Below, piece after piece: positions 2,508 through 4,818 of a stretch of DNA of 64,000 bases (its first letter is position 1; the number at the start of each line of letters is the position of its first letter). The notes beneath the pieces were generated by a model that had not been told where the DNA came from, searched no databases, and was given only the letters and a program-made list of their open reading frames with translations. The translations under genes were made by a program, and so were the position numbers. The DNA lies in assembly GCF_057098645.1 (NCBI RefSeq), contig NZ_CM169472.1. One strand, written 5' to 3'.

Positions 2508-4818
2508 GTTATTCTCTGCATTCAGAAAAAATAAAATCTGGGATTTCAACGGCGGCATCCATCCACCGGAGATGAAAACCCAGTCCAACGGTACCCCCCT
2601 GCGCCAGGTACCCCTGGCGCAGCGTTTTGTTATTCCACTGAAACAGCATATTGGCGCTGAAGGTGAGTTGTGCGTTAGCGTCGGCGATAAAGTATTGCGC
2701 GGCCAGCCGCTTACCCGTGGTCGCGGCAAAATGCTGCCTGTTCACGCGCCCACCTCGGGTACCGTTACGGCTATTGCGCCCCACTCTACGGCTCATCCTT
2801 CAGCTTTAGCTGAATTAAGCGTGATTATTGATGCCGATGGTGAAGACTGCTGGATCCCACGAGACGGCTGGGCCGATTATCGCTCTCGCCGTCGCGAAGA
2901 GTTAATCGAGCGCATTCATCAGTTTGGTGTTGCCGGGCTGGGCGGTGCGGGATTCCCGACAGGCGTTAAATTGCAGGGCGGCGGAGATAAGATTGAGACG
3001 TTGATTATCAACGCTGCTGAGTGCGAGCCGTACATTACCGCTGATGACCGTTTAATGCAGGATTGCGCGGCTCAGGTCGTAGAGGGTATTCGCATTCTTG
3101 CGCATATTCTGCAGCCACGCGAAATTCTTATCGGCATTGAAGATAACAAACCGCAGGCGATTTCCATGCTGCGCGCGGTGCTGGCGGACTCTCACGATAT
3201 TTCTCTGCGGGTGATTCCAACCAAATATCCTTCTGGCGGTGCTAAACAATTAACCTACATTCTGACCGGGAAGCAGGTTCCACATGGCGGGCGTTCATCC
3301 GATATCGGCGTATTAATGCAAAACGTCGGCACTGCTTATGCAGTGAAACGTGCCGTTATTGATGGCGAGCCGATTACCGAGCGTGTCGTAACCCTGACTG
3401 GCGAAGCAATCGCTCGCCCGGGCAACGTCTGGGCACGGCTGGGGACGCCAGTGCGTCATTTATTGAATGACGCCGGATTCTGCCCCTCTGCCGATCAAAT
3501 GGTGATTATGGGCGGCCCGCTAATGGGCTTTACCTTGCCATGGCTGGATGTCCCGGTCGTAAAGATTACCAACTGTCTGTTGGCTCCCTCTGCCAATGAG
3601 CTTGGCGAACCACAGGAAGAACAAAGCTGCATCCGGTGTAGCGCCTGTGCTGACGCCTGCCCTGCGGATCTTTTGCCGCAACAGTTGTACTGGTTCAGCA
3701 AAGGTCAGCAACACGATAAAGCTACCACGCATAACATTGCCGACTGCATTGAATGTGGGGCTTGCGCGTGGGTTTGCCCGAGCAATATTCCCCTGGTGCA
3801 ATATTTCCGTCAGGAAAAAGCTGAAATTGCGGCTATTCGTCAGGAAGAAAAGCGCGCCGCAGAAGCCAAAGCGCGTTTCGAAGCGCGCCAGGCTCGTCTG
3901 GAGCGCGAAAAAGCGGCTCGCCTTGAACGACATAAGAGCGCAGCCGTTCAACCTGCAGCCAAAGATAAAGATGCGATTGCTGCCGCTCTGGCGCGGGTGA
4001 AAGAGAAACAGGCCCAGGCTACACAGCCTATTGTGATTAAAGCGGGCGAACGCCCGGATAACAGTGCAATTATTGCAGCACGGGAAGCCCGTAAAGCGCA
4101 AGCCAGAGCGAAACAGGCAGAACTGCAGCAAACTAACGACGCAGCAACCGTTACTGATCCACGTAAAACTGCCGTTGAAGCAGCTATCGCCCGCGCCAAA
4201 GCACGCAAGCTGGAACAGCAACAGGCAAATGCGGAACCTGAACAACAGGTCGATCCGCGCAAAGCTGCCGTCGAAGCCGCTATTGCCCGTGCCAAAACAC
4301 GCAAGCTGGAACAGCAACAGGCTAATGCGGAACCAGAACAACAGGTCGATCCGCGCAAAGCCGCCGTCGAAGCCGCTATCGCCCGCGCCAAAGCGCGCAA
4401 GCTGGAACAGCAACAGGCTAATGCGGAACCAGAAGAACCGGTCGATCCGCGCAAAGCCGCCGTCGAAGCCGCTATTGCCCGTGCCAAAGCACGCAAGCTG
4501 GAACAGCAACAGGCTAATGCGGAACCAGAAGAACCGGTCGATCCGCGCAAAGCCGCCGTCGAAGCCGCTATTACCCGTGCCAAAGCGCGCAAACTGGAAC
4601 AGCAACAGGCTAATGCGGAGCCAGAAGAACAGGTTGATCCGCGCAAAGCTGCCGTCGAAGCGGCTATTGCACGCGCCAAAGCACGCAAGCTGGAACAGCA
4701 ACAGGCTAATGCAGAACCAGAAGAACAGGTTGATCCGCGCAAAGCGGCAGTTGCCGCGGCTATTGCCCGCGTTCAGGCCAAAAAAGCCGTCCAGCAAAAG
4801 GTTGTAAACGAGGACTAA
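2500..4818 (+). CDS. rsxC: Rnf/Rsx complex subunit C, 772 aa, with a C-terminal repeat expansion
   Basis: N-terminal NADH-binding/Fe-S region ([24 protein letters not shown]) followed by a 32-aa tandem-repeat tail. Confidence 0.9.
4156..4770 (+). repeat. In-frame 96-bp tandem repeat, 6 full copies plus a 39-bp partial copy, encoding [32 protein letters not shown] units
   Basis: Direct reading: unit boundaries at 4156, 4252, 4348, 4444, 4540, 4636 and 4732, with near-identical copies. Confidence 0.9.

What the first reader, a model, noticed from the sequence alone, without database searches (positions are those of the whole stretch)
4156..4770. In-frame 96-bp tandem repeat array at the RsxC C-terminus, apparently one unit longer than the K-12 reference
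Six near-identical 96-bp units plus a partial seventh encode a 32-aa Ala/Lys/Glu-rich unit. The resulting protein is 772 aa; my recollection is that K-12 MG1655 RsxC is 740 aa, i.e. exactly one unit shorter. This is a slipped-strand or unequal-crossover hotspot that changes the length of a predicted coiled-coil tail. It also generates three long phantom ORFs in other frames.
Basis: partly seen in the sequence, partly recalled or inferred. Interest (0 to 1): 0.5.

Follow-up and report, generated by a model that had tools for sequence, protein, structure and literature searches.

The report
Known rsxC length-variable repeat (ms11)
The 96-bp in-frame repeat at the end of rsxC is real and one unit longer than in E. 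coli K-12, but it is the well-known "ms11" strain-typing repeat whose copy number varies between E. coli lineages, so the finding is correct and ordinary.

Summary
Observation confirmed. Tandem Repeats Finder reports a 96-bp repeat, 6.4 copies, at 4156..4771 inside a 772-aa RsxC ORF (2500..4818). K-12 MG1655 RsxC is 740 aa with 5.4 copies. Three long other-frame ORFs cross the array.

The locus is already known. The published primers for MLVA marker "ms11 (rsxC)" (96-bp unit) match the window exactly at 4005..4024 and 4847..4866.

Complete E. coli genomes show an in-frame series of 0 to 7 full units (RsxC 580 to 806 aa). In a spread sample of 59 genomes, 5.4 units is the mode (35). The 616-bp, 6.4-unit allele occurs in 5, the named ones being O157:H7 and O145. 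The window is 100% identical to O145 RM9872 over the regions compared. 26 of 28 genomes with identical flanks, and O157:H7 unit by unit, share this array, so it is not an assembly artefact.

The "coiled-coil" label is not supported. Each unit is predicted as a ~24-residue basic helix plus an 8-residue acidic, proline-containing linker, with no heptad register.

An ~18-aa core (DPRKAAVxAAIARxKAxK) recurs 2-13 times in RnfC/RsxC tails of other genera (Enterobacterales, Pseudoalteromonas, unnamed representatives), with unrelated linkers. A 40-aa version is a published variable marker in Erwinia amylovora. The tail's function is unknown. Novelty: already known. Interest: low.

The parts
2500..4818 (+). 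rsxC coding sequence (772 aa plus stop); its start overlaps the end of rsxB by 8 bp
   Evidence: ORF list. NCBIfam NF003454 RsxC equivalog 870.7 bits, cutoff 345, aa 12-570. Pfam RnfC_N, Complex1_51K, SLBB and Fer4 within aa 14-452.
3850..4155 (+). Non-repeated part of the C-terminal tail (aa 451-552): a long predicted helix, then degenerate motif-like segments ([34 protein letters not shown])
   Evidence: AF2 model, helices H2-57 and H71-99 of the aa 451-772 construct. Solved Rnf structures align only to aa 14-498. Sequence.
4156..4731 (+). Six full 96-bp units (starts 4156, 4252, 4348, 4444, 4540, 4636), each encoding 32 aa = ~24-residue basic helix plus an AEPE(E/Q)(Q/P)V-D linker
   Evidence: TRF; unit dissection and mismatch matrix; AF2 secondary structure; charge pattern +4/-4.
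4348..4539 (+). Units 3 and 4: the most similar pair (3 nt apart), sharing the EEPV (CCG) signature, so the most recent duplication within this array
   Evidence: Mismatch matrix. The same two EEPV units are present in O157:H7 493/89 and strain A30.
4732..4815 (+). Diverged terminal motif copy ([28 protein letters not shown]), retained in every allele including the 0-unit allele; its first 40 nt form the 0.4 partial unit counted by TRF
4816..4821 (+). TAAATG: rsxC stop immediately followed by the rsxD start; preserved in all alleles examined
   Evidence: Sequence; ORF coordinates; allele comparison.
4005..4024 (+). Exact match to the ms11 forward MLVA primer GAAACAGGCCCAGGCTACAC
   Evidence: primer from PMC8215070 Table 1 and PMC11773471 Table 1.
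4847..4866 (-). Exact match to the ms11 reverse MLVA primer CTGGCGCTGGTTATGGGTAT; predicted amplicon 862 bp (K-12: 766 bp)
3520..4923 (-). 467-aa other-frame ORF, judged non-coding
   Evidence: Inter-unit pN/pS is 2.16 in this frame against 0.10 in the rsxC frame. Only rsxC and rsxD are annotated under the match in RM9872 and the other listed genomes.
3948..4742 (-). 264-aa other-frame ORF (TTG start, Cys/Ser-rich repeat), judged non-coding
   Evidence: pN/pS is 0.16, but this antisense frame shares its wobble position with rsxC, so the low ratio is a geometric by-product (plus coordinate arithmetic).
4064..4807 (+). 247-aa other-frame ORF (GTG start), judged non-coding
   Evidence: pN/pS 1.33 in this frame.
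1929..2507 (+). rsxB (192 aa), upstream operon neighbour
   Evidence: K-12 annotation of the syntenic operon.
4819..5877 (+). rsxD (352 aa), downstream operon neighbour

Best explanation
The feature is the E. coli/Shigella variable-number tandem repeat known as ms11, which lies inside the 3' end of rsxC. rsxC encodes the cytoplasmic NAD(P)H/FMN/[4Fe-4S] subunit of the Rsx (Rnf-type) complex, which keeps SoxR reduced.

Shown:
- The window carries six full 96-bp units plus a diverged terminal copy, giving a 772-aa protein.
- K-12 carries five full units (740 aa), and complete E. coli genomes span 0 to 7 full units (580 to 806 aa).
- All changes are whole units (or 3-bp CAG gains). The reading frame, the terminal 28 aa and the TAAATG junction with rsxD are always preserved.
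- This six-unit allele is the usual one in the O145:H28 / O157:H7 lineage. The window is 100% identical to O145 RM9872 over the regions compared.

Inferred mechanism of variation: misalignment between the 92-97% identical 96-bp units, by replication slippage or unequal sister-strand exchange. It adds or removes units mainly in the array interior and homogenises neighbouring units. The first unit and the terminal copy stay orthologous between strains.

Inferred effect on the protein: each unit adds one module made of a ~24-residue basic Ala-rich helix (net +4) and an 8-residue acidic, proline-containing linker (net -4). The modules sit on a flexible tail outside the catalytic core (aa 1-~450). 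This is not a coiled coil.

The conserved element is the ~18-aa core DPRKAAV(E/A)AAIAR(A/V)KA(R/K)K. It recurs 2 to 13 times in RnfC/RsxC tails of other genera with unrelated linkers, and it is under purifying selection in E. coli. The motif is therefore probably functional, most plausibly as a multivalent docking or self-association helix. Its copy number appears weakly constrained.
For: - Array and ORF.
- K-12 is 740 aa with 5.4 copies.
- ms11 identity: the primers listed as 'ms11 (rsxC)' in PMC11773471 and as ms11 (TR size 96 bp, alleles 0, 4.5 to 7) in PMC8215070 match the window exactly and bracket the array. The marker is used in PMC12175529.
- Population survey with a flank-only query. 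The spread sample of 59 genomes gave array lengths of 520 bp (n=35), 424 (10), 427 (2), 616 (5), 622 (1), 718 (5) and 136 (1). Further 0.4-, 2.4- and 3.4-unit alleles came. All translate in frame with an intact C-terminus.
- Lineage: 26 of 28 genomes with 100% identical flanks have the 616-bp array. O157:H7 493/89 units map 1:1 onto the window units with 0-2 mismatches each.
- Concerted evolution: the first unit and terminal copy are orthologous to K-12 (2-4 mismatches) while interior units are reshuffled. S88 has four identical EEQI units, and B2 strains carry 99-bp QQQQ variant units twice.
- Selection: 15 of 20 variable columns are at codon position 3, and pN/pS is 0.10 in the rsxC frame.
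- Structure: AF2 gives one helix per unit, pLDDT ~80-85 in helices and ~55-65 in linkers, pTM 0.20. No heptad register, two prolines per unit.
- The core Pfam domains end at aa 452, and solved Rnf structures align only to aa 498.
- Motif conservation. The profile search of 1.84 billion representatives gave 199 hits. The eight full-length hits inspected (665-971 aa) are all RnfC homologues, with 4-13 motif stretches.
- Erwinia amylovora RsxC has a 40-aa unit from aa 553 with 0-5 copies (PMC10587187).
Against: - The slippage / unequal-exchange mechanism is inferred from allele patterns, not observed. No rate was measured, and RecA dependence is unknown here.
- Which unit is 'extra' relative to K-12 cannot be assigned. 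The best single 96-bp deletion model still leaves 17 mismatches in 567 bp.
- The population figures come from 59 systematically sampled genomes plus the 60 best-matching ones, not from all 5,424 genomes with a match.
- The AF2 model used a single sequence, and its pTM of 0.20 says nothing about inter-helix packing or binding partners.
- No experiment addresses what the tail or its copy number does. The only hint is the K-12 evolved allele rsxC-I525F, in the tail just upstream of the array, described as 'null or neutral' (PMC4759930).
- Gene conversion between units can distort pN/pS.
Confidence: 0.9

Rival explanations
1. The 6.4-copy array in the window is an assembly artefact (an expanded repeat), and the true copy number equals that of K-12.
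For: Tandem 96-bp units at 92-97% identity are hard to assemble. Many database RsxC entries are 'partial' proteins on 1-2 kb contigs, for example P0001 with 184 members. One O145:H28 pair (RM13514/RM12581) shows a 3-unit-shorter array that looks like a collapse.
Against: 26 of 28 genomes with 100% identical flanks, from several laboratories, carry the identical 1216-bp span. All O157:H7 genomes sampled have the same span. O157:H7 493/89 has unit-by-unit orthologues of all six window units (0-2 mismatches each). Each unit carries distinguishing substitutions, which an artefactual duplicate would lack.
Confidence: 0.02
2. Copy number is not near-neutral. The number of motif helices sets the valency of a docking tail and tunes Rsx function (for example the rate of SoxR re-reduction or complex clustering), so lineage-specific copy numbers are adaptive.
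For: The core motif is strongly conserved across genera while the linkers are not. Units are under purifying selection (pN/pS 0.10). At least one motif copy is retained in every allele. Copy number is largely stable within O157:H7/O145:H28. A tail point mutation, I525F, arose in an evolved K-12 line (PMC4759930). RsxC appeared among machine-learning features for O157:H7 clinical outcome (PMC12711010).
Against: Alleles from 0 to 7 units all persist in natural isolates. Genomes with near-identical flanks carry 1.4 to 7.4 units. No phenotype is linked to copy number in any paper found. I525F was judged 'null or neutral'. The ML feature may reflect fragmented short-read assemblies. Lineage stability is equally expected for a slowly mutating neutral VNTR.
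Confidence: 0.2
3. One or more of the long other-frame ORFs across the array (467 aa and 264 aa on the minus strand, 247 aa on the plus strand) is a real overlapping gene.
For: They are long. The 264-aa antisense frame shows a low inter-unit pN/pS of 0.16.
Against: Their length comes from a stop-free unit repeated six times and scales with copy number. Two of the frames have pN/pS above 1 (1.33 and 2.16). The 0.16 frame is the antisense frame that shares its wobble position with rsxC, so the low ratio is expected without any coding. The products are low-complexity Cys/Ser/Arg-rich repeats with TTG/GTG starts. Only rsxC and rsxD are annotated here in every genome listed.
Confidence: 0.02
4. The repeat acts at the DNA or RNA level (structured RNA, regulatory element, or phase-variable switch) rather than through the protein.
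For: It sits immediately upstream of the translationally coupled rsxD start.
Against: Three units folded as RNA are no more stable than shuffles (z = +0.72, with 153 of 200 shuffles folding at least as well). The unit length is a multiple of three and all alleles stay in frame, so there is no on/off switching. Variation between units is concentrated at synonymous sites, which points to protein-level constraint.
Confidence: 0.03

Closest known systems
VNTR locus ms11 of the Shigella / E. coli MLVA panel (Gorge et al. 2008, J Clin Microbiol 46:1026, cited as ref. 19 of PMC8215070; listed as 'ms11 (rsxC)' in PMC11773471)
   Same: It is the same locus. Both published primers match the window exactly and bracket the array. 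The unit size is 96 bp (PMC8215070 Table 2). The published allele range of 0 and 4.5-7 overlaps what I see in complete genomes.
   Different: Nothing biological differs. The MLVA papers I could read treat it as a length marker and, apart from naming the gene, do not describe the encoded helix-linker module or motif conservation. The original 2008 paper was not held, so I could not read it.
Erwinia amylovora RsxC 40-aa tandem repeat (PMC10587187; used again in PMC11834498)
   Same: Same protein and same start position (aa 553). The unit begins with the same 17 residues ([17 protein letters not shown]). Copy number varies among strains (0-5) and is proposed as a VNTR marker.
   Different: The unit is 40 aa (120 bp) rather than 32 aa (96 bp), with an Ala/Pro-rich linker (AAQAAPAAADKAAPVQQPAAEQ) instead of [14 protein letters not shown]. 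The arrays therefore expanded independently around a shared core motif.
C-terminal motif arrays of RnfC in other taxa (Yersinia, Dickeya, Klebsiella, Enterobacter, Citrobacter, Pseudoalteromonas, and unnamed representatives P0079-P0158)
   Same: The core ...AAV(A/E)AAIARAKA(K/R)K... is repeated 2-13 times after the conserved RnfC catalytic core. Linkers within each protein are themselves near-identical, indicating recent local duplication.
   Different: Periods range from about 28 to about 72 aa, and the linkers are unrelated in sequence. These proteins come from an unannotated library, so the taxonomy of the representatives is not given.
Other in-frame coding VNTRs listed with gene names in the E. 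coli MLVA primer table of PMC11773471 (CNV004 in tolA, CNV001 in ftsK)
   Same: They are named as gene-internal MLVA repeat loci in the same primer table. From general knowledge, the tolA and ftsK repeats lie in low-complexity linker regions and change protein length without inactivating the gene.
   Different: Different genes, unit sizes and sequences. I did not examine them here.
Solved Rnf complexes (PDB 8ahx chain C, 496 aa; 7zc6 chain C, 435 aa; 9eri chain C, 443 aa)
   Same: They are homologous over the RnfC core, aa 14-498 of the window protein (E = 5e-121 to 4e-83).
   Different: These RnfC chains are only 435-496 aa long and have no counterpart of the repeat tail, so no experimental structure exists for it.

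Membership tests
VNTR ms11 (E. coli/Shigella MLVA) | Array flanked by the published ms11 primer pair | tested here: met
   GAAACAGGCCCAGGCTACAC at 4005..4024(+) and CTGGCGCTGGTTATGGGTAT at 4847..4866(-), both with 0 mismatches and a single site each. Primers from PMC8215070 and PMC11773471.
VNTR ms11 (E. coli/Shigella MLVA) | Repeat unit of 96 bp | tested here: met
   TRF period 96. PMC8215070 Table 2 gives TR size 96.
VNTR ms11 (E. coli/Shigella MLVA) | Copy number differs among strains | tested here: met
   0.4 to 7.4 units among complete genomes. Predicted amplicons run from 286 to 964 bp.
RsxC / RnfC (subunit C of the Rnf-type electron transport complex) | Sequence scores above the curated cut-off of the RsxC equivalog model | tested here: met
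   NF003454 870.7 bits (cutoff 345); TIGR01945 rnfC 594.6 bits (cutoff 245.95).
RsxC / RnfC (subunit C of the Rnf-type electron transport complex) | Domain order: RnfC_N barrel-sandwich, Nuo51-type FMN-binding domain, SLBB, 4Fe-4S dicluster | tested here: met
   Pfam PF13375 (aa 14-115), PF01512 (139-283), PF10531 (296-344), PF12838 (376-430).
RsxC / RnfC (subunit C of the Rnf-type electron transport complex) | Located in an rsxABCDGE operon | tested here: met
   ORFs for RsxB, RsxD and RsxG flank it. The syntenic K-12 operon is annotated rsxA-B-C-D-G-E-nth.
RsxC / RnfC (subunit C of the Rnf-type electron transport complex) | Participates in reduction of SoxR [2Fe-2S] | not testable with these tools
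   Known for K-12 from the literature summarised in PMC4759930. Not assayed for this allele.
Coiled coil | Continuous heptad periodicity with hydrophobic a/d positions | tested here: not met
   The best register has only 10 of 63 a/d positions on I/L/M/V/F. The unit length of 32 shifts the register by 4 every unit.
Coiled coil | Uninterrupted long helix (no regular helix breakers) | tested here: not met
   Two prolines per unit. AF2 predicts helices of ~24 residues separated by 8 non-helical residues, pTM 0.20.
Phase-variable contingency locus (repeat-mediated on/off switching) | Unit gain or loss shifts the reading frame or promoter spacing | tested here: not met
   96 = 32 codons. All 13 alleles dissected keep whole-codon unit lengths and all 10 translated are in frame. 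All 59 sampled spans differ by multiples of 3 bp.
Phase-variable contingency locus (repeat-mediated on/off switching) | High-frequency change within clonal lineages | tested here: inconclusive
   26 of 28 genomes with identical flanks share one allele, and O157:H7 keeps unit-level orthology. Genomes with near-identical flanks nonetheless carry 1.4 to 7.4 units. No mutation rate was measured.
Erwinia amylovora-type RsxC amino-acid repeat | Repeat starts at RsxC aa 553 with the [16 protein letters not shown] core | tested here: met
   The first DPRK is at aa 553 in all E. coli alleles. The Erwinia unit and position are quoted in PMC10587187.
Erwinia amylovora-type RsxC amino-acid repeat | 40-aa unit | tested here: not met
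   The E. coli unit is 32 aa (33 aa in some B2 units). It is a homologous motif in an independently expanded array.

The most novel reading that the evidence does not exclude
The conserved ~18-residue helix (DPRKAAVxAAIARxKAxK) that recurs 2-13 times in RnfC/RsxC tails across genera may be an undescribed multivalent docking or self-association motif of the Rnf/Rsx complex. In that case its copy number, which the ms11 VNTR changes within E. coli, would tune a real property such as the speed of SoxR re-reduction, partner recruitment, or clustering of complexes at the membrane. The typing marker would then also be a functional dial that differs between O157:H7/O145 (6 units), K-12 (5), ST131 (7) and O121 (1).
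Probability: 0.15. Interest if true: 0.5.

Novelty: already known. Interest (0 to 1): 0.12.

Why it matters
As it stands, this matters little. It confirms that the window carries the usual O157:H7/O145:H28 allele of a typing marker that has been in use since 2008.

Three practical points follow:
- RsxC length differences between E. coli strains (580 to 806 aa) are normal and should not be read as truncations. PGAP nevertheless flags the intact 580-aa allele and one 612-aa allele as pseudogenes.
- Short-read assemblies often break or collapse at this array. Pan-genome or machine-learning features built on RsxC clusters may therefore be artefacts.
- The tail of RnfC/RsxC is absent from every solved Rnf structure and from Pfam, yet it carries a strongly conserved, repeatedly expanded short helix. 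Its partner, if any, is unknown. That is a modest open question, and the natural allelic series makes it easy to test.

Tried and rejected
- A literature search for 'ydgN' plus 'VNTR' found nothing. The broad rsxC/rnfC/MLVA search was swamped by unrelated MLVA papers. Searches for rsxC with '96 bp' or 'in-frame deletion', for RsxC with SoxR and 'C-terminal', and for RnfC with 'C-terminal extension' found no study of the tail.
- The original ms11 paper (PMC2268344) is not held, so I rely on papers that cite it.
- The word-indexed protein search with the tail returned mostly contig-end fragments and frameshifted translations rather than full-length proteins. It was useful only for the motif instances.
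- The many 45-140 aa hits in the profile search looked as if they might be an independent small-protein family. The 16 I inspected read as fragments of RsxC tails: 13 run to a C-terminus of the '...AVNED' type, one stops inside a motif, and two run into out-of-frame or unrelated sequence. I rejected the idea.
- I tried to assign the 'extra' unit relative to K-12 with a single 96-bp deletion model. The best fit still leaves 17 mismatches, and the gap position (4202..4227) disagrees with the most recent duplicate pair (units 3 and 4). The extra unit cannot be uniquely assigned.
- I tried to explain the RM13514 3.4-unit allele as one 288-bp deletion. That leaves 3 mismatches, and no forward single-switch chimera fits. 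A column-majority collapse of units 2-5 fits exactly.
- The tail alone gives no Pfam hit even at E <= 10, and only noise in the PDB: Vang-like proteins at E = 0.004-0.03 and RNA polymerase omega at 0.075.
- An RNA-structure role was rejected (z = +0.72).
- I did not use the second structure job, fold search, or the metagenome and genome-contig scans. The identity of the locus was already settled, and the AF2 model has no global fold to search with.
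Full report
OBSERVATION. Tandem Repeats Finder reports a single array at 4156..4771 with period 96, 6.4 copies, 92% matches and no indels, score 980. It lies in frame in the 772-aa ORF at 2500..4818 on the + strand. Splitting the array at 96-bp steps gives six 32-aa units, DPRK(A/T)AVEAAI(A/T)RAK(A/T)[13 protein letters not shown](E/Q)(Q/P)V. A diverged 28-aa terminal copy follows ([28 protein letters not shown]). The stop codon abuts the rsxD start (TAAATG). The ORF is RsxC. NCBIfam equivalog NF003454 scores 870.7 bits against a cutoff of 345. Pfam finds RnfC_N, the Nuo51-type FMN domain, SLBB and a 4Fe-4S dicluster, all within aa 14-452. 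RsxB, RsxD and RsxG ORFs flank it.

COMPARISON WITH K-12. In NC_000913.3, rsxC (b1629) is 2223 bp, which is 740 aa. TRF finds 5.4 copies of the same unit there.

WHERE THE WINDOW COMES FROM, AND WHETHER THE COPY NUMBER IS AN ARTEFACT. The region is 100% identical to E. coli O145 str. RM9872. To read array length directly, I built a 600-bp query from the 300 bp on each side of the array and searched all complete E. coli genomes. The span between the flanks then gives the array length.
- Among the 60 best matches, 28 genomes have 100% identical flanks. Of these, 26 have the same 1216-bp span (616-bp array).
- All five O157:H7-type genomes in that list, and the five top-ranked genomes of the spread sample, also have it.
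- O157:H7 strain 493/89 has a one-to-one counterpart of every window unit, with 0-2 mismatches each.
Independent assemblies from several laboratories therefore agree. Each unit also carries its own substitutions. I consider an assembly artefact in the window very unlikely.

POPULATION VARIATION. The systematic 'spread' sample of 59 genomes gave these array lengths:
- 520 bp (5.4 units, 740 aa): n = 35
- 424 bp (4.4 units, 708 aa): n = 10, plus 2 with an extra 3 bp
- 616 bp (6.4 units, 772 aa): n = 5
- 622 bp (774 aa): n = 1
- 718 bp (7.4 units plus 6 bp, 806 aa; ST131 O25b:H4 and others): n = 5
- 136 bp (1.4 units, 612 aa; an O121 strain): n = 1
Alleles with 3.4, 2.4 and 0.4 units turned up. 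I fetched representatives and translated them. RsxC is 580, 612, 644, 676, 708, 740, 772, 774 or 806 aa. It is always in frame, always starts the repeat at aa 553, and always ends with the same terminal 28-aa copy. The 772-aa form is a minority allele overall (about 8% of the sample) but the usual one in the O157:H7/O145:H28 lineage.

THIS IS A KNOWN LOCUS. A 2025 paper lists an MLVA marker 'ms11 (rsxC)' with primers GAAACAGGCCCAGGCTACAC and CTGGCGCTGGTTATGGGTAT (PMC11773471). The same primers are given for ms11 in PMC8215070, whose Table 2 gives a repeat size of 96 bp and alleles 0, 4.5, 5, 5.5, 6 and 7. That paper traces the panel to Gorge et al. 2008. Both primers match the window exactly, once each, at 4005..4024(+) and 4847..4866(-), bracketing the array. 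The predicted amplicon is 862 bp here and 766 bp in K-12. PMC12175529 also uses the marker. In Erwinia amylovora, a variable 40-aa RsxC repeat starts at the same residue (553) with the same first 17 residues. It has been published as a typing marker with 0-5 copies (PMC10587187).

HOW THE ARRAY CHANGES (INFERRED). The first unit (DPRKT...), the last two full units and the terminal copy are clearly orthologous between the window and K-12, at 2-4 mismatches each. The interior units are not. Window units 3 and 4 differ by only 3 nt and share a private EEPV signature, which marks a recent duplication. Other lineages show their own homogenised or duplicated units. S88 has four identical EEQI units. 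B2 strains carry a 99-bp QQQQ variant twice. Strain A30 has a duplicated unit 2. This is the pattern expected from misalignment between near-identical tandem units, by replication slippage or unequal sister-strand exchange, with less homogenisation at the array edges. From general knowledge of E. coli tandem-repeat instability, units of about 100 bp rearrange largely without RecA, but nothing here tests that. The exact 'extra' unit relative to K-12 cannot be named. The best single 96-bp deletion model still leaves 17 mismatches in 567 bp.

WHAT THE REPEAT ENCODES. Among the six full units, 15 of 20 variable columns are third codon positions, and pN/pS is 0.10 in the rsxC frame. The peptide is therefore under purifying selection. 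The other frames give 1.33 (+, 247 aa), 2.16 (-, 467 aa) and 0.16 (-, 264 aa). The last is the antisense frame whose wobble position coincides with that of rsxC, so its low value is a geometric by-product. None of these ORFs is annotated in any genome listed.

The 'coiled coil' description does not hold. Each unit has two prolines, and 32 is not a multiple of 7. No heptad register puts more than 10 of 63 a/d positions on large hydrophobic residues, and the hydrophobic moment is low. A single-sequence AlphaFold2 model of aa 451-772 gives one ~24-residue helix per unit separated by 8 non-helical residues. pLDDT oscillates between roughly 80-85 in helices and 55-65 in linkers, and pTM is 0.20, meaning no defined global arrangement. 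Each helix has net charge +4 and each linker -4. The tail matches no Pfam family even at E <= 10, and nothing meaningful in the PDB. The solved Rnf complexes (8ahx, 7zc6, 9eri) align only to aa 14-498.

CONSERVATION BEYOND E. COLI. Tail homologues from Citrobacter, Klebsiella, Enterobacter, Salmonella, Yersinia, Dickeya and Pseudoalteromonas all carry the core DPRKAAV(E/A)AAIAR(A/V)KA(R/K)K two to five times. The periods range from 28 to 72 aa and the linkers are unrelated. I built a profile from 39 motif instances; its invariant residues are D, R, A, A, I, R and K. Searching it against 1.84 billion representative proteins found 199 hits. The eight full-length hits I inspected (665-971 aa) are all RnfC homologues, with 4-13 motif copies after the catalytic core. 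The short hits I inspected are fragments of the same tails. The conserved element is thus the short helix, not the E. coli 32-aa unit. Arrays have expanded independently in many lineages. This argues that the motif does something, perhaps docking or self-association. The wide spread of copy numbers within and between species argues that the number is weakly constrained. I found no experimental work on the tail. The nearest item is the evolved K-12 allele rsxC-I525F, just upstream of the array, judged 'null or neutral' (PMC4759930).

RIVALS. I weighed four rivals and consider each unlikely or unproven:
- an assembly artefact in the window (about 0.02);
- real overlapping genes (about 0.02);
- a DNA- or RNA-level role, given an RNA folding z-score of +0.72 and no frame switching (about 0.03);
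- adaptive tuning by copy number (about 0.2), which is not excluded but has no direct support.

VERDICT. The feature is the known ms11 VNTR in rsxC, carried here as the usual O157:H7/O145:H28 six-unit allele. Novelty: already known. Interest: low (0.12). The only mildly open question is what the conserved, repeatedly expanded helix motif of RnfC/RsxC tails binds, and whether its valency matters.

Noticed in passing
L010 (NZ_CP006027.1, O145:H28 RM13514) 601..984; also RM12581 (H123): These two outbreak-related O145:H28 genomes have 100% identical flanks but a 3-unit-shorter array (3.4 units). Their second unit equals the column-by-column majority consensus of window units 2-5 (0 non-majority columns). 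No forward single-crossover chimera or single 288-bp deletion reproduces it. This looks like an assembly collapse of units 2-5, not a real allele. That is an inference, because I had no reads.
   Followed up: partly
L003 445..2283 (O121 GTVSS-020) and L004 401..2143 (strain 1105); compare L012 (PapRG-04-4): PGAP flags the 612-aa and 580-aa rsxC alleles as pseudogenes ('incomplete; missing C-terminus'). Yet both ORFs are intact, in frame, keep the terminal 28 aa and stop right at the rsxD start. An equivalent 612-aa allele in PapRG-04-4 is annotated as a normal CDS. This is an annotation inconsistency caused by the VNTR.
   Followed up: yes
L002 (ST131 O25b:H4) units 4 and 6; L008 (AREA_492) units 4 and 5: The two B2-type strains dissected here carry 99-bp variant units with one extra CAG (QQQQ instead of QQQ), each present twice. 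This explains array lengths that are 3 or 6 bp off a multiple of 96, a second and smaller level of repeat instability inside the unit.
   Followed up: partly
Protein hits P0001, P0013, P0042 and many 45-200 aa hits: Public protein collections hold many 'partial' RsxC fragments from 1-2 kb contigs (for example P0001 with 184 member sequences). Short-read assemblies evidently break at this array. This may also explain why RsxC surfaces as a machine-learning feature in O157:H7 pan-genome work (PMC12711010).
   Followed up: partly
Proteins P0036, P0062, P0063, P0103: Several Klebsiella-like RsxC tails in the databases switch into another frame of the repeat (runs such as GRSAQGGGGSRHRPRQSAQ). These are presumably sequencing or assembly frameshifts. 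One of them (P0062) is labelled 'DUF1192 family' by its source, which appears to be a mislabel.
   Followed up: no
Protein P0072: A 200-aa protein joins an N-terminal part carrying Pfam PF03461 to a typical RsxC tail end (two motif copies plus ...AVNED). It is probably a chimeric assembly or gene call.
   Followed up: no
L001 4864..5055 (K-12 units 4 and 5): K-12 units 4 and 5 carry non-synonymous changes (KREQQPANA in unit 4; ANAVPEEQV in unit 5). Among the alleles I dissected, these occur only in K-12 and in strain ECCTRSRTH03, whose 3.4-unit array looks like K-12 minus units 2-3.
   Followed up: no
window 42107..42264: The only other tandem repeat in the window (81 bp x 2, TRF score 276) is two adjacent tRNA-Val(GAC) genes at 42107..42183 and 42188..42264.
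   Followed up: yes
PMC7696260 mutation table: A laboratory-evolved olaquindox-resistant E. coli ATCC 25922 line is reported with one 'non-frameshift deletion' in rsxC. It could be a unit loss in this array arising (or mis-called) during short-term evolution. The paper passage shown gives no coordinates.
   Followed up: no
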